The translations under genes and the position numbers were made by a program. The notes beneath the pieces are model-generated. The model was not told where the DNA came from and searched no databases. It was given only the letters and a program-made list of their open reading frames with translations. DNA of 64,000 nt. Source: Candidatus Fraserbacteria bacterium (GTDB taxonomy: Bacteria > Bipolaricaulota > Bipolaricaulia > RBG-16-55-9). Positions 3,493 through 30,720 of this stretch are shown here, one piece after another. Numbering within the stretch: position 1 is the first letter of the stretch; each line of letters starts with the position of its first letter. The stretch spans positions 1,368 through 65,367 of the forward strand of contig JBBIPG010000001.1 of NCBI GenBank assembly GCA_037442925.1, read 5' to 3'.

Positions 3493-3522
3493 TTGACGTG
3501 TCCCTCGGTCTGGTCTTACAAT
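3493..3522 (+). promoter_or_regulatory. Putative sigma-70-type promoter for trkA
   Basis: TTGACG - about 18 nt - TACAAT immediately upstream of trkA. Confidence 0.4.
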
Positions 3523-3538
3523 AGCGCATTCACGTAGC

Positions 3539-4858
3539 GTGATCCCCATGCTTGTAGTAGTGATTGGAGCGGGTCAGGTCGGACAGAGCATCGCACAGGC
3601 GCTGCAGCATGACCACAATGTCATCGTCATCGAGCGCGATAAGGACAACCTGGAAGCCCTCGCCGAATACGACGTGATGACCGTCGAGGGAAACGGCGCC
3701 AGCTTGAAGGTGCTGCAGGAGGCGGGTGCAGACAAGGCCGATCTTGTGATCGCGTGCACGAACATCGATGAAGCCAACATTGTGGCGTGCTCCGGCAGTA
3801 AACAGCTGGGTGCAGCGTTCACCATCGCCCGTGTTCACGATACGGAGTATCTCGACACGTGGGAGCGTGGACGGTTGGGTGTCGATTTCATGGTCTGCAG
3901 CGAAGTGCTCACGTCAGAACTCATCGCTCAGATCATCGGCGTCCCGGCGGCACGCGAAGTCCACGCTTTCGCAGAGGGCCGTATCCTCTTAGCAGAGCTT
4001 CTGATCGAAGCAGGATCTCCGCTGGTGGCACAGCCGCTCCGAGCATTGGAGTTGCCGCAAGGAACGATGATCGCCAGCATCATCCGCGACGGCAGGGTCA
4101 TCATCCCCAAAGGGGACGATGTGATCAAGATTGGGGATCTCATGGTCAGCGTCGGGATTCCCGAGGCCGTCGGTCAGCTCAATCGACAGGCCACCGGACA
4201 ATCGACGCCGCAGAACATTGTCATCATTGGCGGAGGTCGGATCGGATTCCGACTGGCCGCCACCTTGGAAAGGCAGGGACTCCGACCGAAACTCATCGAA
4301 GCAGAAAGCGAACGAAGCCGCTGGCTGGCGGAGCAACTCCCACGAAGCCAGGTCTTTCAGAGCAGTGGCACGGACCTCGAGTTCTTGGAAGCCGAGCGGA
4401 TCGGCGAGTGCGAAGCCGGGGTGTGTGTCATGGATCGAGATGAGAAGAACCTCCTCTCGGCGTTGCTCCTCAAGAGCCTGGGTGTCAAGAAAGTCATTGC
4501 AGGAGTGGTGGATACGCACTTCATCAAGGTCTTCGAGCGCGTCGGGATCGACGTGGCAGTAAGCGCTCGCAAGGTGATCGCCGAAGAGATCATCCGCTTC
4601 ACCCAGAGCCGCATCACCGGGGTATCCGTCTTGGAGGGGGATCGAGCGGAAGTGGTCGAAATGACCGTCTCCCGCAAGAGCCCGCTGGTCGGGGTTCCTC
4701 TCAAAGAATCGTGTCTTCCCAGAGAAGCGATCGTCGGTGCCATCGTGAGGAAGAAACAGGTGATCATCCCTCGGGGCGATGACGCCGTACAATCCGGGGA
4801 TCGCGTGATCATCTTCAGCAAAAAGGAAGCGGCCTCTGAGGTCGAGCGACTGCTATGA
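3539..4858 (+). CDS. trkA: Trk potassium uptake protein TrkA (two RCK_N plus RCK_C)
   Basis: VVIGAGQVGQ and IVIIGGGRIG Rossmann motifs; 439 aa. Confidence 0.9.
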   Translation: MIPMLVVVIGAGQVGQSIAQALQHDHNVIVIERDKDNLEALAEYDVMTVEGNGASLKVLQEAGADKADLVIACTNIDEANIVACSGSKQLGAAFTIARVHDTEYLDTWERGRLGVDFMVCSEVLTSELIAQIIGVPAAREVHAFAEGRILLAELLIEAGSPLVAQPLRALELPQGTMIASIIRDGRVIIPKGDDVIKIGDLMVSVGIPEAVGQLNRQATGQSTPQNIVIIGGGRIGFRLAATLERQGLRPKLIEAESERSRWLAEQLPRSQVFQSSGTDLEFLEAERIGECEAGVCVMDRDEKNLLSALLLKSLGVKKVIAGVVDTHFIKVFERVGIDVAVSARKVIAEEIIRFTQSRITGVSVLEGDRAEVVEMTVSRKSPLVGVPLKESCLPREAIVGAIVRKKQVIIPRGDDAVQSGDRVIIFSKKEAASEVERLL

Positions 4859-6321
4859 AGTTGGTCGTTGACGTCCGATCTTCTGTCCATGTCATCGCCA
4901 TTCTCCTTCAGTGGTTTGCTTTGGCTTTCCTCTTGCCTCTGGCAGTTGCGTTCTTTTATGGCGAGATTCTCTGGCCTTGGCTGCTGTCTCTGGGGGTAGC
5001 GTTGCTGCTGGGCACGGGTCTGCGGGTGCTCACGCGCACGAGCAGAGAAATAAGAGCCCGCGAGGCGTTTCTAGTCGTCGGGTTGGGATGGCTCCTGGTT
5101 GCCCTGGTTGGATGCCTGCCTTATGTATGGCTAGGGGTACTCTCGCCGATCGACGCGCTGTTCGAGTCCATGAGCGGATTTACTACGACTGGTGCCACTG
5201 TGATCGCTGACATAGAGTCCCAGTCCCGATCTCTCTTGTTCTGGCGCGCTCTCAGTCAATGGCTGGGGGGAATGGGCATCATCGTGTTGGCCATTGCGGT
5301 CTTGCCCAGGCTTGCCGTGGGGGGACGACAGCTGGTGGAAGCGGAAGTCCCCGGCCTGGAGATGGAACGACTGGCTCCCCATATCCGCGACACGATCCGA
5401 ACGATCGGCAAAGTGTATCTCAGCTTGAGCTTGGCCGAAGTGCTGGTCCTGCTTGTTACGGGTGTTTCTCTATACGAAGCAGTGGCACACACGTTTACGA
5501 CGCTGGCCACAGGAGGCTTTGGCACACGGAGCCGAAGTATAGAGCCCTTCTCACCTCTCACGCAATGGGTCATCACGTTTTTCATGGTGGTGGGGGGCAC
5601 GAACTTCGCACTCTTCTATCGAGGGTATCGGGCCAAGCTGGGCTTTGGCTCCATCTTCGTTCGAGATGAGGAATTTCGCTTCTACATGGCGACCCTTCTT
5701 CTTGCCAGTCTATTGCTGTTCGTGAGTTTGCTGCGCCTGTATCCGGGAGTAGAAGAGGCACTTCGGTATAGCACGTTTCAAGTTGTATCCATTATGACTA
5801 CGACGGGCTATGCCAGTACAGATTTCAACGAATGGGGCTCGACTGCCAAGTTGATATTACTGGCACTCATGTTCTTGGGTGGGAGCGCCGGTAGCACGGC
5901 GGGCTCGATCAAGCTCGTCCGGACGCTGCTCATCTTCAAGCTGATATGGCGCGAGATCCGGCAGCTCCTGCACCCGCAAGCGGTCATACCCATCCGATTG
6001 GGGTCACGTGTGATCAGCGAGGAGGCTCTCAAAGGCGTGATGATCTTTGCCATCGTCTATGTGACGATTTTCGCCTTGGGAAGCATTCTGCTCATGTTGG
6101 ATCTAGAGCGCGTGGGTGGAGTTCAAGTGCTGGACGCGGTGAGCGCCGTTGCTTCCGCCCTGGGAAACGTGGGACCCGGCTTCGGGATTGTGGGACCGAT
6201 GGCCAACTACGCGACTCTGCCGGAGACGTCAAAACTTCTTCTGACAGCGCTCATGTGGATTGGGCGTCTGGAAATCTTCCCGGTGATTGTGCTCCTGACG
6301 AGAAGCTACTGGCGGGGATGA
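4855..6321 (+). CDS. trkH: Potassium transporter TrkH/KtrB family
   Basis: Multi-TM protein with GGFGTRS and TTTGYA-like selectivity motifs. ATGA overlap with trkA. Confidence 0.9.
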   Translation: MKLVVDVRSSVHVIAILLQWFALAFLLPLAVAFFYGEILWPWLLSLGVALLLGTGLRVLTRTSREIRAREAFLVVGLGWLLVALVGCLPYVWLGVLSPIDALFESMSGFTTTGATVIADIESQSRSLLFWRALSQWLGGMGIIVLAIAVLPRLAVGGRQLVEAEVPGLEMERLAPHIRDTIRTIGKVYLSLSLAEVLVLLVTGVSLYEAVAHTFTTLATGGFGTRSRSIEPFSPLTQWVITFFMVVGGTNFALFYRGYRAKLGFGSIFVRDEEFRFYMATLLLASLLLFVSLLRLYPGVEEALRYSTFQVVSIMTTTGYASTDFNEWGSTAKLILLALMFLGGSAGSTAGSIKLVRTLLIFKLIWREIRQLLHPQAVIPIRLGSRVISEEALKGVMIFAIVYVTIFALGSILLMLDLERVGGVQVLDAVSAVASALGNVGPGFGIVGPMANYATLPETSKLLLTALMWIGRLEIFPVIVLLTRSYWRG

Positions 6322-6325
6322 GCAA

Positions 6326-6934
6326 ATGGCTCAAGCCCGACGTACCTTCGTCATCTTGGGCCATACGGCTGCGATCACGCCTCACTTCACTCTCAATGAC
6401 CTGCCCGGAAGCGCCGGAAGACTCGACATTCTTTGTCGCTGCGTGACGGCTGCTTTCTGTCTCTCGCACGGCATTCGCACTGCTGTCCAGGTCTATCTGG
6501 TCTTGAGGGATCAAGTGGCCGTGCGCTTGGAGGGTTCCCGGCTAAAACGCTTGAACCCTGACGAGCACAGCACGGGTGCCCTGATCAAACGAGCGTTGGA
6601 GGCTTTACCCAACGTACGCCCCGGTGAGCAATGCGAGAGCACGCCGGGCGTCTTCGTCTCCCTCGGCGGATTGCAGACTGTTCTAGACAAACTCCAAGCA
6701 GAAGGAATCGCACTCTATCTGCTCCATGAGCACGGCAAGGACCTTCGCAGCGTAGAGATCAAGGAGCCAGTCGCCTTCGTCTTGAGCGATCACCAGGATT
6801 TCCACTCTTCCGAAGAAGCTCTTATGGCCGGCTACCCACGATTGAGTTTAGGCCCGGTAATTCTTCACGCCGATCACTGCATTGCGATTGTCCATAACGA
6901 GTTGGATCGCAGAGTAAGCCAGATGCTAAAATGA
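6326..6934 (+). CDS. trmY: tRNA (pseudouridine54-N1)-methyltransferase TrmY-like (SPOUT, DUF358/COG1901)
   Basis: LNDLPGSAGRLDILCRCVTAAFCLSHGIR and LHADHCIAIVHNELDRR match archaeal TrmY signatures, as recalled from memory. Confidence 0.65.
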   Translation: MAQARRTFVILGHTAAITPHFTLNDLPGSAGRLDILCRCVTAAFCLSHGIRTAVQVYLVLRDQVAVRLEGSRLKRLNPDEHSTGALIKRALEALPNVRPGEQCESTPGVFVSLGGLQTVLDKLQAEGIALYLLHEHGKDLRSVEIKEPVAFVLSDHQDFHSSEEALMAGYPRLSLGPVILHADHCIAIVHNELDRRVSQMLK

Positions 6935-6958: not shown

Positions 6959-7438
6959 ATGGAAGGCAAACCCGTCCGTGAATCGCTCGTGGAGATGGTC
7001 CAGGTAGTGCGCCCGGGCGATGCCAATCCTCTCGGCATTGCATTCGGGGGCACGGTGGTGGCTTGGATGGACATGGCTGCAGGAGTGGCTGCAGTCCGCC
7101 ATGCGAGAAGACCGGTTGTGACAGCATCCATTGATAATCTCAGTTTCCTCTCGCCGATTCACATCGGTGAGTGGGTGGTCATCCGGGCGGCGGTCAACTA
7201 CACCCACCGAACGTCCATGGAGGTCGGTGTCTGGATCGAATCGGAGAATCCCTTGACCGGAGAGCGCAAACCCACAACCCACGGCTATCTCACCTTTGTG
7301 GCCCTGGATGATTCTGGTCAACCTACACCTGTGCCTCCTGTCTTGCCGGAAACGTATGAGGAGAAGCAGCGCTACGAGGAGGCCAAGCGACGACGGGAAT
7401 ACAAGCTCAAGATGCGCGACGAAGAGCCGAAGTCTTAA
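6959..7438 (+). CDS. Acyl-CoA thioesterase (hotdog fold, YciA-like)
   Basis: VRPGDANPLGIAFGGTVVAWMD motif. Confidence 0.75.
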   Translation: MEGKPVRESLVEMVQVVRPGDANPLGIAFGGTVVAWMDMAAGVAAVRHARRPVVTASIDNLSFLSPIHIGEWVVIRAAVNYTHRTSMEVGVWIESENPLTGERKPTTHGYLTFVALDDSGQPTPVPPVLPETYEEKQRYEEAKRRREYKLKMRDEEPKS

Positions 7439-7488: not shown

Positions 7489-8187
7489 ATGAATTTCGAT
7501 CGGCAGGGGGCGGAGGAGTCGTTTAGCGGTTCGCCTCAAAAAGACCGCCAGCTCATGGTCGAACGGTTGCGCGCTCAAGGCGTCCGGGATGAGCGTGTGC
7601 TTGAGGTCATAAGCCGCATTCCCCGACACTGCTTCGTCGGTGAAGAGTATTGGGACCAAGCCTATGCGAATCACCCCCTACCCATTGAAGATGGTCAGAC
7701 GATCTCCCAACCCTATATTGTGGCACTGATGACGGAGCTACTGGCACCCAAACAGAGCGACAGAGTCTTGGAGATCGGGACCGGCTCCGGCTATCAGACG
7801 GCCATTCTTGCAGAGCTGACAGCGGACGTTTACACTATAGAGCGGTCTCGCGTGCTTTTGGAGAAGGCGCGAGCGCGATTGAAGGCTGCAGGATATCAGA
7901 ATGTGCACTTTCGTCTGGGCGATGGTACGGTGGGTTGGGAAGAATACTCACCGTACAGTGCGATCATTGCTACCGGTGCGGTCCCTAAGGTGCCGCCGTC
8001 GTTGATCCAGCAGCTGGCCGAGGGCGGCCGGTTGGTTCTTCCCGTGGGAGATCGACAAGTGCAAAGACTCTGGCTGATTGAACGTCACGAAGCAGAACTG
8101 GATAAGAGAGAACTCTGTTTCTGCAGCTTTCTGCCTCTGGTGGGAAAGGAGGGATGGCCTGAGGAGGAACGAACTCGCCATCATTGA
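7489..8187 (+). CDS. pcm: Protein-L-isoaspartate O-methyltransferase
   Basis: TISQPYIVALMTELL and VLEIGTGSGYQTAILAEL. Confidence 0.9.
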   Translation: MNFDRQGAEESFSGSPQKDRQLMVERLRAQGVRDERVLEVISRIPRHCFVGEEYWDQAYANHPLPIEDGQTISQPYIVALMTELLAPKQSDRVLEIGTGSGYQTAILAELTADVYTIERSRVLLEKARARLKAAGYQNVHFRLGDGTVGWEEYSPYSAIIATGAVPKVPPSLIQQLAEGGRLVLPVGDRQVQRLWLIERHEAELDKRELCFCSFLPLVGKEGWPEEERTRHH

Positions 8188-18839: not shown

Positions 18840-20120
18840 GTGGTCCCCATGCAGGTGTGCCTGCGTAGCTTAACCGCTAGAGCATGGGTTGGGGTGCTCC
18901 TGGGTCTGCTCACGGGATTCGATCCCACCTGGGCCCAGCAAGGAGGGGGAGGAAGCCCTCTCGCTCCAGAGGTGCTCTTCATCGATTTCCCCCAGCAGAT
19001 CCCCTCGGATGGGAGCAAGGTCTTCGGTCGGGTGAGTTTTCGGGATACGGACGCCAACATCACGCTCGCCAAGTTCGAGGTGGTGGAAGCCACAGATTTT
19101 GCGTCGTTCAGCTTCGATCCTAAAGTCGAGGGTAAGAAGGAAGGGGTCTTCGAGTTTTTCGTCTTCTCCAAGATTGCCCAGCGGGTCACCCTCAAGGTCA
19201 CGTTGGCCGATGGCGCTGGGAACACGAGCTTCCCCAAAGAGTTCACGTTCGAGGCCGTTTCGCTGATCGAGTTTGTCACGCAGTGGGGAAGCTTGGGCAG
19301 CGGCAATGAGCAGTTCAAAGATCTAGGGGGACTCGCTCTGGATCGTCAGGGGAACATCTACGTCACGGACTTCGACAATAGCAGAGTGCAGAAGTTCTCG
19401 TCGGATGGAACCCTGATCGCAATCTGGGGAGGTCGCGGCAGTGCGCCGGGTCGACTGGATGGTCCTCTGGGCATTGCCGTGGACAGTCAGGGGAACGTCT
19501 ATGTGGCGGAGGCAGGAAACCGGCGGGTTCAGAAATTCAGTTCCGAGGGGAGGTATCTACTCCATTGGGGGAGCTTCGGCAACGATCCCGGACAATTCAA
19601 TTCCCCAACAGGGGTCGCTGTAGATCGCAACGGGAACGTTTATGTAGCGGATCAAACGACTGGGGTCATTCAAGCCTTCACCCCCACGGGAGCCTTTCTG
19701 CGACGCTGGGGCACCCAGGGGAGTGGCGAAGGTCAGCTGCGCAACACCATGGACTTAGTTGTTGACCAAAACGATACTATCTATGTGGCCGATACGGGCA
19801 ACCGCCGCATTGTGACCTTCAGCACTGATGGCGCCTTCTTGGGACAGTGGGGCACCGAAGGCTCGCGCGACGGTCAGTTTCTTGAACCCCGAGGAGTCAC
19901 AGTGGATCTGGAAGGCAACGTCTATGTGGCCGATAAAGGGAACCATCGCATTGCCAAGTTCTCGCGTGAAGGCAGGCTACTGGCTCAATGGGGCAGTGCG
20001 GGCAGTGGCCAAGGAGAATTCTCGGAGCCTGTGGATCTTGCGGTCGACTCGAACTGGGTGATCTACATTGCGGATGAGGGCAACCACCGCATACAAGCCC
20101 TCAAGTTCAAGATGCCGTAA
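18840..20120 (+). CDS. Secreted NHL-repeat beta-propeller protein
   Basis: Six repeats of G..G.F..P.G.AVD..GN.YV.D..N.R.Q.F. N-terminal signal. Confidence 0.7.
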   Translation: MVPMQVCLRSLTARAWVGVLLGLLTGFDPTWAQQGGGGSPLAPEVLFIDFPQQIPSDGSKVFGRVSFRDTDANITLAKFEVVEATDFASFSFDPKVEGKKEGVFEFFVFSKIAQRVTLKVTLADGAGNTSFPKEFTFEAVSLIEFVTQWGSLGSGNEQFKDLGGLALDRQGNIYVTDFDNSRVQKFSSDGTLIAIWGGRGSAPGRLDGPLGIAVDSQGNVYVAEAGNRRVQKFSSEGRYLLHWGSFGNDPGQFNSPTGVAVDRNGNVYVADQTTGVIQAFTPTGAFLRRWGTQGSGEGQLRNTMDLVVDQNDTIYVADTGNRRIVTFSTDGAFLGQWGTEGSRDGQFLEPRGVTVDLEGNVYVADKGNHRIAKFSREGRLLAQWGSAGSGQGEFSEPVDLAVDSNWVIYIADEGNHRIQALKFKMP

Positions 20121-20550
20121 GGTTGCTTCTAGACATGGATCTTCGACGGCGATCCAGAAAGCCCTGTAAGATCAAAACTGCAGCCAGTTGATCCCGGATT
20201 CCTTTGCGCTTCCGGCGACTGAGATCGGCTTCGAGTAAGACACGCTCTGCTTCGACGGTGGTGAGCCGCTCGTCGAACAGTTCGACGGGAAGCTTCAGCG
20301 CTTCTCGCAGTTGGCTCTGAAACTGCAAAGTCTCTTCGGCCTTGGGTCCGGGTGACCCATTCATATTGACCGGTAGCCCAACGACGATCAACTCCACGCC
20401 TTCGCTCTGAACGACGCCCTTGAGATACTCAAGATCACTCTGCCATGAGCGGCGCGTATAGACAGCAAGTCCGCGGGCAACGGTGTGCGTCTCATCGCTG
20501 ATGGCCAGTCCGATGCGCTTTTCGCCCAGATCTAGCGCGAGAATCTTCAT
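20107..20550 (-). CDS. ruvX: Putative pre-16S rRNA nuclease / Holliday junction resolvase RuvX (YqgF)
   Basis: MKILALDLGEKRIGLAISD N-terminus. Confidence 0.85.
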   Translation of the reverse strand: MKILALDLGEKRIGLAISDETHTVARGLAVYTRRSWQSDLEYLKGVVQSEGVELIVVGLPVNMNGSPGPKAEETLQFQSQLREALKLPVELFDERLTTVEAERVLLEADLSRRKRKGIRDQLAAVLILQGFLDRRRRSMSRSNLTAS

Positions 20551-20615
20551 CCCCTTACATTAACGGCGCGCGACTGGTTCGTCAAACACGGTATAATGGC
20601 GCAAGAGAGGAGACC

Positions 20616-21872
20616 ATGTCAGAACTGCTCGCGAAGGCCCAGGAGATCCTGCGACAGGAGGTGATCTGCAACCGCTGTCTCGGGCGTTGCTTTGCCAAGT
20701 CGGGCACGGGGTTAACGAACGAAGAGCGCGGGAAGGCTCTGCGAGTTCTTGCTGCAATGCACAAGCGCCAGCCATTCGTGGCCTCACAAGAGTGCTCGAT
20801 CTGTCAGAGTATTTTCACAACCGTGGATCGTTGGGTGGAGCAAGCTCTGCAGCGAATAGAAGGCTACGAGTTTCAGACATATCTCATGGGAACCCGCATT
20901 CCCTTGGAGATCGAGGCCGCGGAGCGATCGCTTTGGGAGAAGTATCACATTGGCGTTCAGTGTACGGAACCCATCAAGCAAGAGTTCAATCGCGAGGTGG
21001 GAAAGCGCTTTGGGATCATCATGTCCGCTCGTGGTCAACCCATTCTGGTGGATTTTCGAGAGCCGGAAGTTGTCTTTTTGATGGATCTAGAGCGCAATCA
21101 ACTGAAAGTGCGAGTCCACTCGCTCTTCCTCTATGGCCGGTATCGTAAGCTCGTACGAGGCATTCCGCAGACGAAGTGGCCCTGCCGTACGTGTCGTGGG
21201 CGAGGATGTGAGGAGTGCGATTACACGGGAAAGACGTATCCAGAGAGCGTAGAAGAGCTTATTGCTGAACCCGTACTAAGGGCAGCAAAAGGGAAGGCAC
21301 ATGCGCTTCATGCGGCGGGACGGGAGGATGTAGACGCTCGCATGTTGGGTAGCGGGCGGCCTTTCGTTCTGGAAATCACATCGCCTCGAAAACGAAGTCT
21401 GGACTTGGAACTGTTGACGAGAGAGATCAACAGACTGGCACAGGGCAAAGTGGAGGTGGGTGCGCTTCGCTTCGTCAAGAGCAAGGTTGTCGAGCACATC
21501 AAAGAGCTGGAAGCTCAGAAATCGTATCGTGCGGATGTCGCATTGGGTCGTGAAATTCATGAAGAAGAACTGCAACATGCTTTGCATCAGCTGATTGGCG
21601 ATATTGAGCAGCGGACTCCTCGCCGAGTGCGCCATCGGCGGGCCGATCTTGTGAGAACCCGAAGAGTTCTTGCTATCGACGGAAGACTCACAGGACCGTG
21701 CGCGGCCCTCATCGAGATTGTCTGCGATGGCGGACTCTACGTGAAAGAGCTCATTTCCGGAGATGAGGCTCGCACGCGCCCGAGTCTTTCAGGGTTATTG
21801 GGCACACGTGCACAAGTGGTAGAACTCGATGTTCTGGATGTTCTGGGCGGAATCAATCTGCCCGAAACTTGA
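20616..21872 (+). CDS. pus10: tRNA pseudouridine synthase Pus10 (archaeal/eukaryal type)
   Basis: N-terminal CNRCLGRCFAKSGTGLTNEERGKALRV zinc-ribbon region. Catalytic HAAGREDVDARMLGSGRPFVLE motif. 418 aa. Confidence 0.8.
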   Translation: MSELLAKAQEILRQEVICNRCLGRCFAKSGTGLTNEERGKALRVLAAMHKRQPFVASQECSICQSIFTTVDRWVEQALQRIEGYEFQTYLMGTRIPLEIEAAERSLWEKYHIGVQCTEPIKQEFNREVGKRFGIIMSARGQPILVDFREPEVVFLMDLERNQLKVRVHSLFLYGRYRKLVRGIPQTKWPCRTCRGRGCEECDYTGKTYPESVEELIAEPVLRAAKGKAHALHAAGREDVDARMLGSGRPFVLEITSPRKRSLDLELLTREINRLAQGKVEVGALRFVKSKVVEHIKELEAQKSYRADVALGREIHEEELQHALHQLIGDIEQRTPRRVRHRRADLVRTRRVLAIDGRLTGPCAALIEIVCDGGLYVKELISGDEARTRPSLSGLLGTRAQVVELDVLDVLGGINLPET

Positions 21873-22953
21873 AGACTTGGGCCGCGACAAAAAACGTGAT
21901 AGCCAGCCAGAGCCCAATATAGAGTAACTCCGGTCCTAGGGACGTAAGCGGCGCGTCATTGATCGAAATTGCGCGTAGGGCTTTCAGCAACGGCGTCAAC
22001 GGCAGAAATTGCACTAAAGAGTGCACTGCTGTAGGCAGATTGTCCGTCGAGAAGAACGCCCCCGATAGGAACAGCATGGGCATCCCGATCACTTGAGCCA
22101 GGCCGCTCGCTCCGCTGGCCGTCCGACTCAGCCCAGCGACAATGAAGCCGAGATTGAGAAAGATCAGTGTGCCCACAAGCGTCAATGCATACAGATTCAC
22201 GAGGTTTCCGTGGATGGTCGCGCCAAAAAGGCTTGTCCCCACAACCAGAATCAACGACGCTTGAAGGAAGACGAGCACGAGGTACGCCAGCACTTGGCTA
22301 ATAATAAAGGTGCGGGGCGGAAGCGGTGTACTGCGAATTCTCTTCAAGATGCGCTGCTCGCGGTAGCGCGTCATATCCACGGCAATCAAGATGATCCCGT
22401 TGAACATAAGACCCATGCCCATGATCCCCGGCAGGAGGAAATCCATGTATTTCACGGTGCGCGCTTCGAGCGATTCTTCTTTGAGAGCAAAGAGCCTGGG
22501 CACTCCAATCAACTTCAAGTTCAACTCGTTCACTAGCTGATTGAGTGCACTGCGCACCAACTCATACTCAATGAGGTTCGCTTTGTCATAGTATACGGTG
22601 AACTCAATCGTTTCTGAAAGTGTGCCGTCTGAACCCAGAGCACGGAACGACTCAGGGATGATGATCGCGGCTTCGATCTTCCCGTCCTTGAGCGCCCTCT
22701 TTGCAGCAGCTTCGCTTGTGATGTCGTCATGGAGCTGGAAGTACTTGATCTGGCGCATCGCAGCGATGAGTTGCTTCGATACATCCGTGCCGGCTTGATC
22801 GATGATTGCCAGCCGAGCTGTGCCTCCACCTTCGAAGTTGAAGAGCCCAAAGATGACGATGAACATGACCGGAAAGGCCAAACCCCAAAAGAGCGTGAGC
22901 CGGTCTCGGAATATGATCTTGAGCGAAGCGATAAACAGCTTGAGGTAAGTCAA
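21853..22953 (-). CDS. ABC-2 family transporter permease
   Basis: 366 aa, large N-terminal extracytoplasmic loop plus 5 C-terminal TM helices. Operon with ATPase. Confidence 0.75.
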   Translation of the reverse strand: MTYLKLFIASLKIIFRDRLTLFWGLAFPVMFIVIFGLFNFEGGGTARLAIIDQAGTDVSKQLIAAMRQIKYFQLHDDITSEAAAKRALKDGKIEAAIIIPESFRALGSDGTLSETIEFTVYYDKANLIEYELVRSALNQLVNELNLKLIGVPRLFALKEESLEARTVKYMDFLLPGIMGMGLMFNGIILIAVDMTRYREQRILKRIRSTPLPPRTFIISQVLAYLVLVFLQASLILVVGTSLFGATIHGNLVNLYALTLVGTLIFLNLGFIVAGLSRTASGASGLAQVIGMPMLFLSGAFFSTDNLPTAVHSLVQFLPLTPLLKALRAISINDAPLTSLGPELLYIGLWLAITFFVAAQVFKFRAD

Positions 22954-23873
22954 TCTCTCAGCTCCTTGCCGGTCAGTTCCAGAAAGACGTCTTCCAGATT
23001 GGCGGGCAAGACTTCGATGTCTTCGAGTGGAATCTTCTCGGCCTCGATCACCTTGAGTAGCGACGGCAGACTGTCCAAAGCTTTGGTGACCCGCAGCTGA
23101 TATTTCGGGGCATGATCGCGGATCTCTTGGACGCTCAGCACGCCTTCAACAGCTTGGAACGCGCTTGCTGGCAATTGCTTTTCCGTGATCACGTTGATGC
23201 GGTAGCTCGACTTTAAACCATGAACAAGATTGGTCGGCGTGTCGAGCGCCACGATCACGCCAAGATCAATAATTGCGACGCGATCGCAGAGCAGTTGGGC
23301 CTCTTCCATGTAGTGCGTCGTCAGAATGACCGTCTTGCCCTTCGCATTGATCTCCCTGATAAAATCCCAAAGGTGCCGACGGGCCTGAGGATCAAGCCCG
23401 GTCGTGGGCTCATCCAGAAAGACGACCTCGGGATCATTGACGAGACTGGCAACGATAGAGAATCGCTGCTTCTGGCCGCCGGAAAGATGCTTGACCAGAG
23501 AGTTCTTCTTTTCGAGTAAACCGACGATGGAAAGCAGTTGATCGACATCCACTTTCGTTCGGTAGAAGCTGGCAAAGAGATCGAGGATTTCCGCCAGCGT
23601 CAAGAAGTCAAAGTACGCTGAGGCTTGAAGCTGGATGCCGATCTTCTGCTTGACCTTCTTGCTTTCCCTGTGTGAGTCGCATCCCAAGACCCACGTGCGC
23701 CCGGAGGTGGGCTCTTGCAATCCTTCGATGACCTCGAGAGTTGTGGTCTTACCAGCGCCATTGGGGCCGAGCATCCCGAAGATCTCACCTTGCTCGACTT
23801 CAAACGAAATATCATCGATGGCAACGAGAGTGCCAAAGCGCTTGGTCAGATGCTCAACGCGGATGACCGCCAT
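22950..23873 (-). CDS. ABC transporter ATP-binding protein (DrrA-like)
   Basis: GPNGAGKTT, LSGGQKQR, Walker B. Confidence 0.9.
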   Translation of the reverse strand: MAVIRVEHLTKRFGTLVAIDDISFEVEQGEIFGMLGPNGAGKTTTLEVIEGLQEPTSGRTWVLGCDSHRESKKVKQKIGIQLQASAYFDFLTLAEILDLFASFYRTKVDVDQLLSIVGLLEKKNSLVKHLSGGQKQRFSIVASLVNDPEVVFLDEPTTGLDPQARRHLWDFIREINAKGKTVILTTHYMEEAQLLCDRVAIIDLGVIVALDTPTNLVHGLKSSYRINVITEKQLPASAFQAVEGVLSVQEIRDHAPKYQLRVTKALDSLPSLLKVIEAEKIPLEDIEVLPANLEDVFLELTGKELRD

Positions 23874-23875
23874 GT

Positions 23876-24298
23876 TTACGCTTTTGGATTGATGTGATAC
23901 TCGTAGGAGATCTCGGCTCGCCCTTTAAGCGTGTTGGACACGGTGCAGTATTTCTCAAGCGATAGCTCGATCGCTTGCTTGAACGCTTCTTCCGAGATGT
24001 TCTGGCCCCAGATCTTGTAGGTCAGGTGAATCTTCTTGATGTACTTCGGTAGTTCGGTGGCTCGTTCCTCATTCACTTCGATCTCAAAATCGTTGAAATC
24101 GATGCGCTTCTTCTTCAAGATCGAGACCACGTCCATGCCGGTGCAACCTGCCGCGGCGATGAGCACGAGTTCCACTGGGCTGGGCCCGGCGTTGAAGCCA
24201 CCTACATCGGCAGACGTATCCACCACAACTGCATGATTGCTACCGGATGATCCCACAAACTGCAGTCCCCGGTTCCAGACGATCTTGGCCGTGGCCAT
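23876..24298 (-). CDS. OsmC/Ohr family protein
   Basis: 140 aa with paired Cys (CTGMD) typical of OsmC. Confidence 0.75.
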   Translation of the reverse strand: MATAKIVWNRGLQFVGSSGSNHAVVVDTSADVGGFNAGPSPVELVLIAAAGCTGMDVVSILKKKRIDFNDFEIEVNEERATELPKYIKKIHLTYKIWGQNISEEAFKQAIELSLEKYCTVSNTLKGRAEISYEYHINPKA

Positions 24299-24405
24299 AG
24301 GTTCCTCCTTGGACGAGATTTTAGTAAGTGGACGACGCCAAGGTCTACGAGATCAAGAATGATCTGTGGGATCTGACTTTGAGCTTCATGGTCTTCACTC
24401 CTTGA

Positions 24406-24921
24406 TTAAGCCTTCTCAAACACCAGATCGCCGTGCTTCTTGATGTACTCGATAATGCCACCCTCGTTTAAGATCTGCATCATCACCGGTGGGATGCGCC
24501 CGGCCTGAAGCTGCGTCCCCTTCGTCTTGTTGTGAATCATGCCTTGCGAGAGATCGATCTCAAGCTCATCTCCTTGGGCAATCTGATCGGTGTCCACCAC
24601 AAGAGCGGGCATTCCGATGTTGAAGCAGTTGCGATAGAAGATGCGAGCGAAGGACTTTGCCAAGACGATGGGCACGCCAGACAATTTGATCAGCCTCGCT
24701 GCATGTTCCCGAGAAGATCCCTGACCAAAATTGCGCCCACCTACAACGATATACTTCTCTTTGCTCTCAAGAGCAGCCGGAGCGAACTTGGGATCGGCGT
24801 CTTCCAAGACGTGTTTGACGAATTCATCCATCTTGTCCCGGAGATTGGCATAGCGTCCCGGTGCGATGAGATCTGTAGAAACATAGTCTCCAAACTTCCA
24901 GGCTTTGCCTCGGATGATCAT
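24406..24921 (-). CDS. leuD: 3-isopropylmalate/homoaconitate dehydratase small subunit (archaeal-type short LeuD)
   Basis: 171 aa, GDYVSTDLIAPGRY. Confidence 0.85.
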   Translation of the reverse strand: MIIRGKAWKFGDYVSTDLIAPGRYANLRDKMDEFVKHVLEDADPKFAPAALESKEKYIVVGGRNFGQGSSREHAARLIKLSGVPIVLAKSFARIFYRNCFNIGMPALVVDTDQIAQGDELEIDLSQGMIHNKTKGTQLQAGRIPPVMMQILNEGGIIEYIKKHGDLVFEKA

Positions 24922-26229
24922 GGCGTGTACGCCTCCTCTAGAGTCTGGACTTCACTCTGCCCGGTTTTCAGATAGGGCCTGGGATCAGCAATCATGCCCT
25001 CGATGGCGGTCGCTGCCGCTGTCGCAGGCGAAGCGAGATAGACGAATGAGTTGGGATTGCCCAAGCGTCCCTTGAAGTTGCGGTTCTGAGTTGCGACACA
25101 GACTTCACCATCTGACAAGAGCCCAAACTGCATGCCCGGACACGGCCCGCAAGCCGCATGGGCTACTATAGCTCCTGCCTCTTCCAACGCCTTGATGTAT
25201 CCCTTCTTGAGAGCTTGGTGATAGACCCAGCGCGAGCCAGGGTACACCAGAAAGCGCGTGCCCTTGGGTACCTGATGTCCCTTCACGATCTCTGCTGCGA
25301 CGGCAAGGTCCTCCAGTCTGCCATTCGTGCACGTTCCCAAGAAGACTTGATGGACTTTTACTCTCTTCTTAGCCACTTCGCATATGGACACCACATTGCC
25401 GGGAGTGTGCGGCTCCGAAACCATGGGTTCCAGCTTCGAGACATCAATCTCATAGATCTTCTCGTATCTGGCGCTGCGGTCCGGCTTGATCGGCTTCCAT
25501 TGGGCTTCGCGTCCATGAAGCTTCATCCAACGCTTCGTCTGCTGATCCGAAGGGAAGAGTCCGAGCTTGGCTCCACATTCTTGTGCCATGCTGGTGATTG
25601 TGAAGCGTGCATCCATAGAGAGCTTTTTCACCAAGTCCCCGCCGTATTCCATGGCTTTATAGGCAGCTCCATCTTCCCCAATGAGTTTGATAATGTGAAG
25701 AATGATGTCTTTTGCATAGACCCCGTGGGGAAGATCACCGTTCAGTTCAAAGCGAAGCGTCTCCGGCACGCGGAACCATTGCTTGCCCAACGCCATAGCT
25801 ACAGCCGTATCGGTCGAGCCCATTCCGGTGGCAAAGGCGCACATGCCAGCCGATGTGCTTGTGTGTGAATCGGCTCCCACGACTACATCTCCCGGCTTGA
25901 CGTAGCGCTCCGTGAGCAGGATGTGGCTGATCCCCTCACCCATCTCTGCCAGAATGCATCCCGTGTCTTCTGCAAACTTCCTCAGGCGGCCGTGCATATT
26001 GGCGTATTCGGGCCGTCCCGGTGGCCCCAGGTGATCGAGCACGATCATCGCGCGCTCCGGATGCTTCAAGTAATCGCGGCCCATGAGTTGTCGGATCACG
26101 TCGAAGGTGAGCGTGCCGGTGCCATCTTGCACGATGGCCATATCCACTTCACAAAGTGCAATATCACCAGCCTTCACCTCATGCCCCAATTTCATCGAAA
26201 GAATCTGCTCTGCCAGTGTGAGTCCCACA
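24918..26229 (-). CDS. leuC: 3-isopropylmalate/homoaconitate dehydratase large subunit
   Basis: Aconitase-family Cys ligands. ORF 24918..26270 trimmed to GTG (VGLTLAEQIL). Confidence 0.85.
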
Positions 26230-26370
26230 GTTGGAATCCTCCCTCTTGGTGATCGCGCTGAGTATAGCATAGAAGTACAGAATGTGCGAGTGCCTCACGC
26301 AGAGCGATGTTGCGGCCTGGAAGGCTTATCGCTATGCTGGAGTTTACCTTTCGTAGAGAGGGATGAGCAC

Positions 26371-27879
26371 ATGGAAGAGAAACTCCGCAAACTCAAAGAA
26401 TTATTGGCAAGAGTCAGTGATCTGGAATCTGCTGCGGCCGTCTTAAGTTGGGACCAAGAGACGTACATGCCTTCGGGCGGAGCAAGAGCACGAGCCGAAC
26501 AGATCGCAACTCTGGGTAAACTCGCTCACGAGTTCTTCACTTCCACTGAGATCGGGGAGCTGCTCACAGCCCTTGCTCCCTACGCCCGCCAGCTCGACTA
26601 TGATTCTGATGAGGCCAGCCTCATACGCGTTACCCAACGCGACTACGATAAGGCCGTGAAGATCCCCGCGGAGCTTGTGGCGGAGATTGCCCGCACGGGA
26701 GCGCTGGCCCGCCAAGCATGGAAGGAAGCTAAAGAGACCTCGAACTTCGCCCTCTTTCGTCCCCATCTGGAGAAGGTCGTCGATCTTTGCATTCAAAAGG
26801 CAGAAGCCCTGGGGTACGAAGATCGCATCTACGATGCGCTGCTCGATGAGTACGAGCCCGGCATGAAGACGGCGCATGTCGAGAGGATCTTCACTGACCT
26901 TAGGGCTGAACTGGTCCCGATCGTTCAGGCGATTGCCGCATGCGAAAAACCCGATGACTCGTTCCTCCACCAAGAATACGGCGAACAAGCCCAGTGGGAC
27001 TTCGGGATCGAAGTGATCAAGGATTTCGGCTTCCATTTGGAGAACGGCCGACAAGATCTATCCGCTCATCCGTTCACGACGGCGTTTTCCCTCAAAGATG
27101 TGCGGCTGACGACCCGCATCCACAAAGACTATCTGCCTTCGGGTCTCTTCAGCACGCTCCACGAGTGCGGTCATGGACTCTACAACCAGGGAATCGCGCC
27201 GGAATTGGAACGCACACCTCTGGCCGGTGGGACATCGCTTGGGGTGCACGAATCTCAGTCGCGACTATGGGAGAACCTCATCGGGCGTAGCCGTCTCTTC
27301 TGGAGTCACTACTACCCGCGCCTGACGAAGCTCTTTCCGGCTCAGCTCAAGAACGTGAGCCTGGAGCGTTTCTATCAGGCAATCAATCGCGTGGAACCTT
27401 CGTTCATCCGCGTTGAGGCCGATGAAGTTACTTACAATCTTCACGTCATGCTCCGCTTTGAGCTGGAGAATGCCCTGCTGGAAGGCCGGGTCAAAGTCAA
27501 AGATCTCCCGAAAGTCTGGAACGCGAAAATGGAGGAGTATCTGGGTATTGTGCCGCCCAATGATGCTCAGGGTGTCCTCCAAGACATCCACTGGTCTCAG
27601 GCATATCTGGGCTACTTCCCCACCTACTCGCTGGGAAACCTGATGTCGGCCCAGCTCTTTAAGCAAGCAACGCAGGACATTCCCACTCTGGCTCGGCAGA
27701 TCGAGTCGGGCCAGTTTGGTGAGCTATTGAGCTGGTTGCGCACGAACGTGCATCGTCACGGACGAAAATTCACTTCGACGGAACTGCTCGAGAGAATCAC
27801 CCAAAAGCCACTCGAAGCCCAGAGTTATCTAGAATATATCCGTGAGAAATACTCGGACATCTACGGTGAGCTGAACTAG
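26371..27879 (+). CDS. Carboxypeptidase Taq (M32) family metallopeptidase
   Basis: HECGHGLY HEXXH site and SAHPF motif. ORF 26083..27879 trimmed to MEEKLRKL. Confidence 0.9.
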   Translation: MEEKLRKLKELLARVSDLESAAAVLSWDQETYMPSGGARARAEQIATLGKLAHEFFTSTEIGELLTALAPYARQLDYDSDEASLIRVTQRDYDKAVKIPAELVAEIARTGALARQAWKEAKETSNFALFRPHLEKVVDLCIQKAEALGYEDRIYDALLDEYEPGMKTAHVERIFTDLRAELVPIVQAIAACEKPDDSFLHQEYGEQAQWDFGIEVIKDFGFHLENGRQDLSAHPFTTAFSLKDVRLTTRIHKDYLPSGLFSTLHECGHGLYNQGIAPELERTPLAGGTSLGVHESQSRLWENLIGRSRLFWSHYYPRLTKLFPAQLKNVSLERFYQAINRVEPSFIRVEADEVTYNLHVMLRFELENALLEGRVKVKDLPKVWNAKMEEYLGIVPPNDAQGVLQDIHWSQAYLGYFPTYSLGNLMSAQLFKQATQDIPTLARQIESGQFGELLSWLRTNVHRHGRKFTSTELLERITQKPLEAQSYLEYIREKYSDIYGELN

Positions 27880-27914
27880 AGAACGACAAGGCGGAAGCAC
27901 GCGCACAAAAGCAC

Positions 27915-28028
27915 CTAGACCCGGCCAATCTTTCGCGCCAAGCGACTGCGATGGCGACGCCGGGCAGCCAGCTTCCTCTTGCGTTTGCGCATCCACTTTG
28001 GCATGTATTGCCGCTTCATCTTCGACAT
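27915..28028 (-). CDS. 37-aa Arg/Lys-rich small protein, possibly ribosomal bS22-like
   Basis: Reverse-complement reads AAGGAG-N8-ATG then MSKMKRQYMPKWMRKRKRKLAARRRHRSRLARKIGRV*. Composition resembles actinobacterial bS22. Below the ORF-track length cutoff. Confidence 0.45.
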   Translation of the reverse strand: MSKMKRQYMPKWMRKRKRKLAARRRHRSRLARKIGRV

Positions 28029-28117
28029 GTCGATTTCTCCTTCTGTCAGGATTGTGCCCGTGTATCAAGACGAAACACTATTATATTATACATCGGGAGA
28101 TTCCGTGTTGCCGCTGT

Positions 28118-28146
28118 TTGACAAGATCGGCAGCAGTTGGTAGTCT
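28118..28146 (+). promoter_or_regulatory. Putative promoter for infB
   Basis: TTGACA - 17 nt - TAGTCT. Confidence 0.45.
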
Positions 28147-28195
28147 GTGACGGGCTTCTACCCACATCGAAATTCGTTTCGCGAAAGGGAGAATA

Positions 28196-30046: not shown

Positions 30047-30085
30047 GCGGGAGACTTTCCATCCGCGGGGTGTGGGTGAGAGTAT

Positions 30086-30367
30086 ATGCGCGTTGGAATT
30101 GCGCGGATGACGCTGCGCTTGCCACAGACTTCCTCCCTCAAAGACAAACGGCGCGTTCTTAAGAGTCTTATCGCCAAAGTCAAACAGGAGTTCAACGTCT
30201 CGATTGCAGAGGTGGACGAATTGGATAACAGGCGCGTGGCCGTCCTCGGTGTGGCCTTCGTCTCCAACGACGGACGTCTCAACCAACGTGTGATCCAGCA
30301 TCTTGTCTCCCTCATCAGCCACAATCCCCAAGTGTTCGTAGAAGACTGCCAGAGCGAGATCCTTTAG
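30086..30367 (+). CDS. DUF503 (YlxP-like) protein
   Basis: 93 aa between infB and rbfA, as in Bacillus ylxP. Confidence 0.7.
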   Translation: MRVGIARMTLRLPQTSSLKDKRRVLKSLIAKVKQEFNVSIAEVDELDNRRVAVLGVAFVSNDGRLNQRVIQHLVSLISHNPQVFVEDCQSEIL

Positions 30368-30369
30368 TC

Positions 30370-30720
30370 ATGAGCCGGAAGTGGCTGGAAAGAGTCCGTG
30401 AGGAGATCAAGCGCCGTCTCAGCGAGATATTACAATATGAAGCACGCGATCCTCGGCTGCAGCTGGTCACCGTGATGGATGTTCGCGTCTCGAGCGATCT
30501 GCACTATGCGACGATCTACGTGAGTGCCACGGGGAGAGAAGCTTCCTCTGAAGAAGAAGTGGTCAAAATACTAAACGGGCATCGGGGCTTCTTTCGCTCT
30601 GAGCTTGCCAAGCAGCTTCGGCTACGCCACACGCCCGAGTTGCGCTTTGAGCTTGATCTGGTAGAAAGGCGCGCCAGACGAATTGAAGAAGTGCTCAAAG
30701 AAGAAAACCGCAAGCTCTAG
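30370..30720 (+). CDS. rbfA: Ribosome-binding factor A
   Basis: 116 aa, RVSSDLHYATIYVS typical. Confidence 0.85.
   Translation: MSRKWLERVREEIKRRLSEILQYEARDPRLQLVTVMDVRVSSDLHYATIYVSATGREASSEEEVVKILNGHRGFFRSELAKQLRLRHTPELRFELDLVERRARRIEEVLKEENRKL

What the first reader, a model, noticed from the sequence alone, without database searches (positions are those of the whole stretch)
6326..6934. Archaeal-type trmY (DUF358 SPOUT methyltransferase) embedded in a bacterial trkA-trkH operon
The 202-aa product carries the hallmark TrmY motifs (LPGSAGRLDILCRCVTAAFCLSHGIR; C-terminal HADHCIAIVHNELD) of the enzyme that makes 1-methylpseudouridine-54 in archaeal tRNA. It sits 4 nt after trkH in an otherwise bacterial operon.

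Together with the Pus10 gene at 20616..21872, this implies that this bacterium replaces the usual bacterial T54 (m5U) with an archaeal-style m1-Psi54.
Basis: partly seen in the sequence, partly recalled or inferred. Interest (0 to 1): 0.6.

Follow-up and report, generated by a model that had tools for sequence, protein, structure and literature searches.

The report
Archaeal tRNA methylase TrmY in bacteria
This bacterium, and apparently its whole candidate phylum (Bipolaricaulota/Fraserbacteria), carries intact copies of the enzyme pair Pus10 and TrmY that archaea use to put 1-methylpseudouridine at position 54 of tRNA, although reviews describe both enzymes as absent from bacteria.

Summary
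ORF 6326..6934 (+, 202 aa) starts 4 nt after trkH and is a full-length TrmY. It scores 222 bits against the NCBIfam TrmY equivalog (cutoff 183), gives E=9e-40 to the characterised M. jannaschii enzyme MJ1640, and its AF2 model superposes on MJ1640 at TM 0.88. The Pus10 call at 20616..21872 also holds (TIGR01213, 510 bits). That protein has the GREDVD catalytic motif and a full-length MjPus10-type forefinger loop, the determinant of pseudouridine-54 activity.

The contig is bacterial: it encodes bL25, bacterial Pth, RuvX, RbfA, IF-2 and DnaE. This is not a one-off insertion. Close homologues of both genes come almost only from Bipolaricaulota/Acetothermia/Fraserbacteria. The order pyrF|trkA-trkH-trmY-(thioesterase)-pcmt is kept in 16 of 17 informative genomes. 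Bacterial TrmY (91% bootstrap) and Pus10 (72%) each form one clade next to Methanotrichales/Halobacteriales/Archaeoglobi sequences. trmY composition is host-like. This points to one old archaeal-to-bacterial transfer.

Most likely, Pus10 makes pseudouridine 54/55 and TrmY methylates N1 of pseudouridine 54. Whether this replaces m5U54 was not testable, because I could not check whole genomes for trmA, trmFO or truB. The only hint is that truB is missing after rbfA in three of the four genomes checked; the fourth has no rbfA after DUF503. It is a new member of a known family in an unexpected domain.

The parts
3493..3522 (+). sigma-70-like promoter match (TTGACG-18-TACAAT) just upstream of trkA; a possible operon promoter
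   Evidence: 10 of 12 matches. This is a consensus match only, not evidence of function.
3539..4858 (+). trkA (K+ uptake, NAD-binding subunit), first gene of the operon
   Evidence: Pfam TrkA_N E=1.3e-48 and TrkA_C. It is syntenic in 15 bacterial loci.
4855..6321 (+). trkH (K+ transporter membrane subunit); overlaps trkA by ATGA
   Evidence: Pfam TrkH E=8.4e-71. It lies directly upstream of trmY in 16 of 17 informative bacterial loci.
6326..6934 (+). trmY: tRNA (pseudouridine54-N1)-methyltransferase, SPOUT class, 202 aa; the finding itself
   Evidence: NF002560 at 222 bits (cutoff 183). PF04013 E=8e-51. MJ1640 E=9e-40. AF2 pLDDT 90.3 and TM 0.88-0.89 to 3AI9/3AIA. Nineteen columns are invariant with archaeal TrmY.
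6959..7438 (+). 4HBT-family acyl-CoA thioesterase, 24 nt downstream of trmY
   Evidence: Pfam 4HBT E=4e-19. It sits at this position in 5 related loci.
7489..8187 (+). pcmt (protein-L-isoaspartate O-methyltransferase), a conserved downstream neighbour
   Evidence: Pfam PCMT E=4.4e-61. It follows trmY in 16 of 17 bacterial loci.
20616..21872 (+). pus10: tRNA pseudouridine(54/55) synthase, the enzyme that makes TrmY's substrate. Key residues are catalytic D238, R236, D240, H232, forefinger C190-V212, Y304, H340-R341, V376-K377 and L404.
   Evidence: TIGR01213 at 510 bits (cutoff 200), PF22023 and PF21238. GREDVD motif and offsets, compared with the MjPus10 residues reported in PMC3753934.
28196..30720 (+). 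infB-DUF503(ylxP)-rbfA cluster with no truB after rbfA. This is context for the question of whether Pus10 also replaces TruB.
   Evidence: The same arrangement occurs in L037 and L039.

Best explanation
ORF 6326..6934 encodes a functional orthologue of archaeal TrmY. TrmY is a homodimeric SPOUT (alpha/beta-knot) S-adenosylmethionine-dependent methyltransferase. The proposed pathway has two steps. First, the Pus10 encoded at 20616..21872 isomerises U54 and U55 in the T-loop of tRNA to pseudouridine. Second, TrmY methylates N1 of pseudouridine 54, giving m1-pseudouridine-54, which resembles ribothymidine (isosteric, from general knowledge). An ancestor of the Bipolaricaulota/Fraserbacteria lineage acquired both genes from a euryarchaeon. 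The nearest sampled relatives are Methanotrichales, Halobacteriales and Archaeoglobi. The genes have been inherited vertically since then. trmY became fixed as the third gene of the trkA-trkH operon and is probably co-transcribed with it. What is shown: family membership, fold, conserved residues, the partner enzyme, phylum-wide conservation, synteny and the bacterial host. What is inferred: the actual modification, its tRNA substrates, and whether it replaces or coexists with m5U54 and TruB-made pseudouridine 55.
For: Identity of the protein:
- NCBIfam TrmY equivalog above its cutoff and a full-length Pfam PF04013 match.
- phmmer E=8.7e-40 to MJ1640, the biochemically characterised TrmY, and E=6e-33 to AF_1056.
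- AF2 model with pLDDT 90.3. The best Foldseek hits are 3AI9/3AIA at TM 0.88-0.89 and rmsd about 2.1 A.
- Nineteen columns are invariant across 18 bacterial and 20 archaeal sequences. They include G31 R32 D34 R38 C39, P78 D79 E80, F151 D155 and D194.

The partner enzyme:
- Pus10 scores 510 bits against TIGR01213.
- It has GREDVD, a His at -6, and Cys residues at -48 and -37 from the catalytic Asp. These offsets match MjPus10 segments ffl1 and ffl2, whose deletion abolishes pseudouridine-54 activity.

Conservation and co-occurrence:
- The top 120 homologues of TrmY and of Pus10 that carry a name are almost all Bipolaricaulota/Acetothermia/Fraserbacteria, at 50-87% identity.
- Both proteins list matching longest-contig lengths (97,813; 90,701; 67,439; 121,680; 488,165 bp), which suggests shared contigs.
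- trkA-trkH-trmY synteny holds in 16 of 17 informative loci.
- Bacterial TrmY is monophyletic at 91% bootstrap and Pus10 at 72%.
- trmY GC and GC3 are within 0.5 sd of the window's genes.

Supporting context:
- In archaea, trmY and pus10 are adjacent in L018 and L036, which fits a functional couple.
- tRNA-Val genes in related genomes have the canonical GGTTCAAGTCC T-loop.
Against: - There is no biochemical or mass-spectrometry evidence, and the organisms are uncultured MAGs.
- The window holds no tRNA gene.
- I could not establish that trmA, trmFO or truB are absent from these genomes, so 'replacement' is unproven.
- trmY and pus10 are 14 kb apart and not co-transcribed here.
- Pus10 alone would be needed even if only pseudouridine 55 were made, as in Thermococcales.
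- The trees are neighbour-joining. Their archaeal sampling is small and biased by the query-derived search patterns.
Confidence: 0.8

Rival explanations
1. The pair is active but does not replace the bacterial system. TrmA or TrmFO and TruB are still encoded elsewhere. Pus10/TrmY then modify only a subset of tRNAs, as human PUS10 does for pseudouridine 54, or act under particular conditions.
For: Whole genomes could not be searched. Human PUS10 acts on select tRNAs alongside TRMT2A and TRUB1 (PMC6380271). Thermococcales keep Pus10 together with an m5U54 methyltransferase.
Against: truB is missing from its canonical slot after rbfA in the window and in L037 and L039. In L038 no rbfA follows DUF503, so that locus is uninformative, although no TruB_N hit lies within 10 kb. 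Phylum-wide retention of TrmY, which is useless without pseudouridine 54, argues that pseudouridine 54 is common. MjPus10 outcompetes native TrmA when expressed in E. coli (PMC3753934).
Confidence: 0.3
2. The bacterial TrmY has shifted substrate. It would methylate a pseudouridine in rRNA, tmRNA or another RNA rather than tRNA position 54, as the SPOUT enzyme Nep1 does in small-subunit rRNA.
For: Nep1 is the next-closest fold family (TM about 0.63). Specificity shifts between rRNA and tRNA are documented for U54 methyltransferases (PMC7912444). About 29 columns are invariant in bacteria but differ in archaea.
Against: The protein scores above the curated equivalog cutoff. All family-invariant residues are kept. 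It co-occurs with a Pus10 that carries the pseudouridine-54 determinants. Halobacterial TrmY share several of the 'bacterial' residues, for example S154.
Confidence: 0.08
3. Artefact: an archaeal fragment was mis-assembled or mis-binned into a bacterial MAG, or the gene is a decaying relic of a recent transfer.
For: The sequences come from metagenome-assembled genomes. One Pus10 relative is labelled Caldiserica and one locus Thermotogae, which shows that binning labels can be wrong.
Against: trmY lies 4 nt from trkH on one contig together with bL25, Pth, RuvX, RbfA and DnaE. The same gene order recurs in 16 independent assemblies. Composition is host-like. The ORF is intact, with conserved catalytic residues at 55-87% identity across the phylum.
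Confidence: 0.02

Closest known systems
Archaeal TrmY (MJ1640 of Methanocaldococcus jannaschii, HVO_1989 of Haloferax volcanii; COG1901/DUF358/PF04013)
   Same: It has the same length (about 200 aa), a single-domain SPOUT fold (TM 0.88-0.89 to 3AI9/3AIA) and the same invariant motifs (GR.D.L.RC, PDE, F..D(H), LHA.H, LD). It co-occurs with Pus10. Identity is 39% to MJ1640 and 47-50% to Methanotrichales/Halobacteriales TrmY.
   Different: It is encoded in a bacterial genome, inside a trkA-trkH K+ uptake operon rather than next to pus10 as in some archaea. It forms a separate bacterial clade (91% bootstrap). Reviews state that TrmY is found only in archaea (PMC5372735; PMC9508554).
Archaeal Pus10 (MjPus10), the tRNA pseudouridine 54/55 synthase
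   Same: The window's Pus10 has the THUMP plus catalytic domain architecture, GREDxD, His at -6, the thumb-loop His-Arg, and a full-length Cys-rich forefinger loop at the same offsets as MjPus10.
   Different: The host is bacterial. The literature states that Pus10 orthologues are not found in bacteria (PMC6380271, PMC5682645, PMC7264889).
Vibrio cholerae VC_A1059 (PDB 2QWV), a bacterial DUF358 protein of unknown function
   Same: It belongs to the same Pfam family and fold (TM 0.84).
   Different: It is much more distant: E=3.4e-14 and 26% identity, against 9e-40 and 38% for MJ1640. The window protein belongs to the archaeal TrmY branch, not this subfamily.
Nep1/Emg1, the N1-pseudouridine methyltransferase of small-subunit rRNA
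   Same: It is a SPOUT fold and performs the same chemistry, N1 methylation of pseudouridine.
   Different: The resemblance is at fold level only (TM about 0.63, 11-16% identity). Its substrate is rRNA. The window protein is not a member of this family.
Bacterial TrmA/TrmFO with TruB (m5U54 and pseudouridine 55)
   Same: They act on the same tRNA positions, and the product (m5U) is isosteric with m1-pseudouridine.
   Different: The folds and chemistry are unrelated. None of these genes is in the window, and truB is missing after rbfA.

Membership tests
TrmY (tRNA pseudouridine54-N1 methyltransferase; NF002560 / PF04013 / COG1901) | Full-length match to the curated family profile above its trusted cutoff | tested here: met
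   NF002560 equivalog at 222.4 bits against a cutoff of 183. PF04013 at 173 bits against 25.5, covering profile positions 2-195 of 198.
TrmY (tRNA pseudouridine54-N1 methyltransferase; NF002560 / PF04013 / COG1901) | SPOUT alpha/beta fold superposable on solved TrmY structures | tested here: met
   AF2 model with pLDDT 90.3 and pTM 0.90. Foldseek gives 3AI9 at TM 0.89, 3AIA at 0.88 and 2QMM at 0.86. The knot topology itself was not checked explicitly.
TrmY (tRNA pseudouridine54-N1 methyltransferase; NF002560 / PF04013 / COG1901) | Conservation of the family-invariant residues, including the C-terminal knot region | tested here: met
   Nineteen columns are invariant across 38 bacterial and archaeal sequences. 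Another 29 are invariant in bacteria and present in at least 80% of archaea. I could not read the mutagenesis papers, so I cannot say which of these residues bind SAM.
TrmY (tRNA pseudouridine54-N1 methyltransferase; NF002560 / PF04013 / COG1901) | Co-occurrence with Pus10, which supplies the pseudouridine-54 substrate | tested here: met
   Pus10 is at 20616..21872 on the same contig. Homologues of both proteins list matching longest-contig lengths in five cases. Pus10 is also present on the 488-kb Acetothermia contig (L037).
TrmY (tRNA pseudouridine54-N1 methyltransferase; NF002560 / PF04013 / COG1901) | SAM-dependent N1-methylation of pseudouridine 54 in tRNA or a T-arm minihelix | not testable with these tools
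   This needs an enzyme assay or LC-MS of tRNA nucleosides.
TrmY (tRNA pseudouridine54-N1 methyltransferase; NF002560 / PF04013 / COG1901) | Homodimeric assembly | not tested
   Only a monomer was modelled.
Pus10 (tRNA pseudouridine 54/55 synthase; TIGR01213) | Profile match above cutoff, with a THUMP domain and a C-terminal catalytic domain | tested here: met
   TIGR01213 at 510.3 bits against a cutoff of 200. PF22023 E=3e-23 and PF21238 E=1e-66.
Pus10 (tRNA pseudouridine 54/55 synthase; TIGR01213) | GREDxD active site and a full-length forefinger loop (pseudouridine-54 determinants) | tested here: met
   GREDVD with D238. C190-R194 and C201-V212 lie at -48 and -37 from the catalytic Asp, as do Mj ffl1 (C227-R231) and ffl2 (C238-V249) relative to D275. 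The mapping is by offset, because no MjPus10 sequence was available to align.
Vibrio-type bacterial DUF358 (VC_A1059 subfamily) | Closer to VC_A1059 than to archaeal TrmY | tested here: not met
   E=3.4e-14 to VC_A1059 against 8.7e-40 to MJ1640.
Nep1/Emg1 | Sequence-level or close structural match | tested here: not met
   TM 0.56-0.65 and 10-16% identity. There was no profile hit.

The most novel reading that the evidence does not exclude
The whole Bipolaricaulota/Fraserbacteria lineage has swapped the bacterial T-loop machinery (TrmA or TrmFO, and TruB) for the archaeal Pus10/TrmY pair through one ancient transfer from a Methanotrichales/Halobacteria/Archaeoglobi-like archaeon. Its tRNAs would then read m1-pseudouridine-pseudouridine-C instead of T-pseudouridine-C. 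That would be the first bacteria with an archaeal-type tRNA elbow and a case of inter-domain displacement in the core translation apparatus.
Probability: 0.4. Interest if true: 0.7.

Novelty: new member of a known kind. Interest (0 to 1): 0.5.

Why it matters
T54 and pseudouridine 55 are among the most conserved tRNA modifications. The enzymes that make them are used as a textbook contrast between domains: TrmA/TruB in bacteria and eukaryotes, Pus10/TrmY in archaea. Reviews up to 2023 state that Pus10 is absent from bacteria and that TrmY occurs only in archaea. None of my literature searches found a paper linking these enzymes to Bipolaricaulota.

A whole bacterial phylum that keeps both genes under purifying selection gives a concrete, testable prediction: m1-pseudouridine-54 in bacterial tRNA. 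It would also be a natural experiment on whether m1-pseudouridine and m5U are interchangeable at the tRNA elbow. Finally, it marks an old archaea-to-bacteria transfer into the translation apparatus. Annotation pipelines already name these genes in MAGs, so the advance is recognising and interpreting them, not discovering a new protein family.

Tried and rejected
Dead ends:
- I looked for tRNA genes and Rfam families in the window to inspect T-loops directly. None were found. I used tRNA-Val genes from related loci instead.
- I tried to read Chatterjee 2012, Wurm 2012 and Fitzek 2018, for bacterial COG1901 members, mutagenesis data and Pus10 evolution. The library does not hold them.
- An exact look-up of the window's TrmY (P0001), meant to give the source record and extend the contig, returned nothing.
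- The supplements of the ribosome-biogenesis survey PMC12641178 do not list TruB or Bipolaricaulota.
- The first bootstrap script, using Biopython's distance calculator, timed out. I redid it with numpy and counted bipartitions directly, because Biopython's rooted support values were unreliable.

Limits of the tools:
- I could not test for the absence of trmA, trmFO or truB. As a proxy I examined the infB-rbfA neighbourhood in three other genomes.

Considered and rejected:
- The window is archaeal. The bacterial markers rule this out.
- Recent horizontal transfer. Synteny and composition argue against it.
- Membership of the Vibrio DUF358 subfamily or of Nep1.

Full report
**Observation**

The ORF exists exactly as described. 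It runs from 6326 to 6934 on the + strand, starts with ATG and encodes 202 aa, and both quoted motifs are in the translation. It starts 4 nt after the trkH stop codon. trkA (3539..4858) and trkH (4855..6321) overlap by ATGA. A 4HBT thioesterase follows 24 nt downstream and pcmt 50 nt after that. A promoter-like site lies just before trkA. No room for a terminator exists between trkH and trmY, so co-transcription is likely, though this is inferred.

**What the protein is**

- Pfam gives only PF04013, at E=7.9e-51 over nearly the whole model.
- The NCBIfam TrmY equivalog NF002560 scores 222 bits against a curated cutoff of 183.
- Among solved structures, the best match is MJ1640, the M. jannaschii TrmY (E=8.7e-40). 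AF_1056 follows at 6e-33. The only bacterial structure in the family, Vibrio VC_A1059, is far weaker at 3e-14.
- An AlphaFold2 model built on 37 homologues is confident (pLDDT 90.3). It superposes on MJ1640 at TM 0.88-0.89 and rmsd about 2.1 A. The next fold family is Nep1, the other N1-pseudouridine methyltransferase, at TM about 0.63.
- In an alignment of 18 bacterial and 20 archaeal sequences, 19 columns are invariant. They include G31 R32 D34 R38 C39, P78 D79 E80, F151 D155 and D194. Another 29 are invariant in bacteria and present in at least 80% of archaea.

**The partner enzyme**

ORF 20616..21872 is Pus10. It scores 510 bits against TIGR01213 (cutoff 200) and has the archaeal THUMP domain and the Pus10 catalytic domain.

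It carries the GREDVD active site with catalytic D238, plus R236 and D240, and a His six residues upstream. Equivalents of the MjPus10 residues Tyr339, His376-Arg377, Ile412-Lys413 and Leu440 are present as Y304, H340-R341, V376-K377 and L404 (residue roles from PMC3753934).

The Cys-rich segment C190..V212 sits at offsets -48 and -37 from the catalytic Asp. Segments ffl1 and ffl2 of MjPus10 sit at the same offsets, and their deletion abolishes pseudouridine-54 but not pseudouridine-55 activity. The bacterial enzyme therefore has the full-length forefinger loop, not the shortened Pyrococcus form. This mapping is by position, because I had no MjPus10 sequence to align. The same motifs occur in 20 of the 21 aligned Pus10 sequences; the GREDxD pattern was not found in the one Fraserbacteria-labelled sequence, P0180.

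**The host is a bacterium**

The window encodes the following bacterial genes:

- bL25/Ctc
- bacterial-type peptidyl-tRNA hydrolase
- RuvX/YqgF
- IF-2
- DUF503
- RbfA
- DNA polymerase III alpha
- PRPP synthase

Related loci add PriA and sigma-70. The closest relatives are Candidatus Fraserbacteria RBG_16_55_9 and Bipolaricaulota/Acetothermia MAGs. Neighbouring proteins are 66-90% identical to those of the Fraserbacteria locus. NCBI lists Fraserbacteria as a separate candidate phylum. From memory, GTDB places it inside Bipolaricaulota.

**Distribution and history**

Of the 120 best TrmY homologues (55-100% identity), every one that carries a name is Bipolaricaulota, Acetothermia or Fraserbacteria. 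The same holds for Pus10, except for one 'Caldiserica' and one 'Archaeoglobi' label. Homologues of both proteins list the same longest-contig length in five cases (97,813; 90,701; 67,439; 121,680; 488,165 bp), which suggests shared contigs.

A scan of one genome per species returned 18 bacterial loci, followed by Methanotrichales and Halobacteriales at 46-49% identity, Thermoplasmata at 41% and Hermodarchaeota at 28%.

By tblastn, the order pyrF(-)|trkA-trkH-trmY-(thioesterase)-pcmt-PKD protein is kept in 16 of 17 informative bacterial loci, even where TrkA is only about 55% identical. The arrangement is therefore old.

Neighbour-joining trees give these results:

| Grouping | Bootstrap |
|---|---|
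| Bacterial TrmY monophyletic | 91% |
| Bacterial TrmY grouped with Halobacteriales, Methanotrichales and Thermoplasmata, apart from MJ1640, AF_1056 and Hermodarchaeota | 82% |
| Bacterial Pus10 monophyletic against Methanotrichaceae, Archaeoglobi and Hermodarchaeota | 72% |

The immediate sister group of bacterial TrmY is unresolved.

trmY GC and GC3 are typical of the window. Pus10 GC3 is somewhat low (z=-2.2). In Methanotrichaceae (L018) trmY is followed by pus10 58 nt downstream, and in Hermodarchaeota (L036) the two are divergent neighbours. A single co-transfer is therefore plausible.

Taken together, this points to one ancient archaeal-to-bacterial acquisition followed by vertical descent, not a strain-specific insertion. 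One caveat applies to the donor: the archaeal sample is small and was selected by query-derived peptide patterns, so the donor lineage is tentative.

**How it most likely works**

Pus10 converts U54 and U55 of tRNA to pseudouridine. The TrmY dimer then transfers a methyl group from SAM to N1 of pseudouridine 54. This order, and the sufficiency of the T-arm as substrate, are established for the archaeal enzymes (PMC7912444, PMC9508554, PMC5372735). tRNA-Val(CAC) genes in eight related genomes have the canonical GGTTCAAGTCC T-loop. That is compatible with the pathway but does not discriminate. TrmY has no known use without pseudouridine 54, so its retention across the phylum is the strongest genomic argument that pseudouridine 54 is actually made.

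**What remains open**

With these tools I could not search whole genomes.

As a proxy for truB, I examined its usual location. The window has infB-DUF503(ylxP)-rbfA, the Bacillus-type cluster in which truB normally follows rbfA (operon order from my own knowledge). Here a convergent DUF501 gene abuts rbfA instead. The same arrangement is seen in two further genomes. A third has infB-DUF503 with no rbfA after it, so it says nothing about the post-rbfA slot. No TruB_N hit lies within 10 kb in any of the three. This fits Pus10 having displaced TruB, but it does not prove that truB is absent.

I put 0.8 on 'functional TrmY making m1-pseudouridine-54 with Pus10'. I put about 0.4 on full phylum-wide replacement of the bacterial enzymes.

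**Comparison with what is known, and novelty**

The protein is an ordinary member of the TrmY family in sequence, fold and partner. The unusual point is the domain of life. Reviews say TrmY is 'found only in archaea' (PMC5372735). [quoted passage not shown]

Full-text searches pairing Pus10, TrmY, COG1901 or pseudouridine with Bipolaricaulota or Acetothermia found no paper on the subject. NCBI and JGI pipelines already label these MAG genes as TrmY and Pus10, so the proteins are annotated but apparently not discussed.

I class it as a new member of a known kind in an unexpected lineage, with moderate interest (0.5). It contradicts a repeated statement in the field and gives a directly testable prediction. 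It involves known enzymes, and their activity here is still inferred.

Noticed in passing
window 28196..31254; L037 10001..13125; L039 10001..12919: The infB-DUF503(ylxP)-rbfA cluster is followed directly by a convergent DUF501 gene. truB, which usually follows rbfA, is absent there in the window and in two other Bipolaricaulota genomes. A third genome (L038) has infB-DUF503 with no rbfA and no truB within 10 kb.
   Followed up: partly
window 20107..30720; L037 4824..12622: The location of pus10 is conserved in a distant relative (IF-2 57% identical). It is divergent from ruvX (directly adjacent in the window; one gene intervenes in L037) and a few kb upstream of OsmC, M32 carboxypeptidase and infB-DUF503-rbfA.
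   Followed up: partly
L002 3745..4845: In one Fraserbacteria MAG the TrmY reading frame runs on into the downstream thioesterase, giving a 367-aa ORF. This is either a real TrmY-thioesterase fusion or an assembly error.
   Followed up: no
window 44771..45451, 47281..47900, 48704..48964: A cluster of toxin-antitoxin-like genes: MazE/AbrB-type antitoxin with a PIN toxin, DUF433 with a DUF5615/PIN-like protein, and a DUF4258 protein.
   Followed up: partly
window 49153..49500 (+): A stand-alone tRNA_bind (PF01588, Trbp111/CsaA-like) protein of 115 aa, E=1.6e-27. From memory, such proteins bind the tRNA elbow. Any link to the T-loop modification is untested.
   Followed up: no
window 45590..47064 (+); tandem repeat 46720..46955: A trypsin-like peptidase domain is followed by a many-bladed WD40 propeller. 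It may be split over two ORFs (45590..45928 and 45922..47064). The 126-bp tandem repeat reflects the WD40 repeats.
   Followed up: no
window 39390..41078 (+): An NFACT/RqcH-type ribosome quality-control protein (NFACT_N E=1e-113) is encoded in this bacterium.
   Followed up: no
L038 8149..8826: A Rad52/Mgm101-family gene lies between cytochrome c and ychF in a Bipolaricaulota genome. This is unusual for a bacterial chromosome and may be phage-derived.
   Followed up: no
L007 (labelled 'uncultured Thermotogae'); P0225 (labelled Caldiserica): These records carry other phylum labels. L007 has the full Bipolaricaulota synteny. P0225 clusters with Bipolaricaulota sp. J31 in the Pus10 tree. The taxonomic labels of these MAGs are probably wrong.
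   Followed up: partly
window 20616..21872: Pus10 GC3 is 0.57, against a mean of 0.648 for 37 window genes (z=-2.2). trmY is typical (z=-0.5).
   Followed up: no
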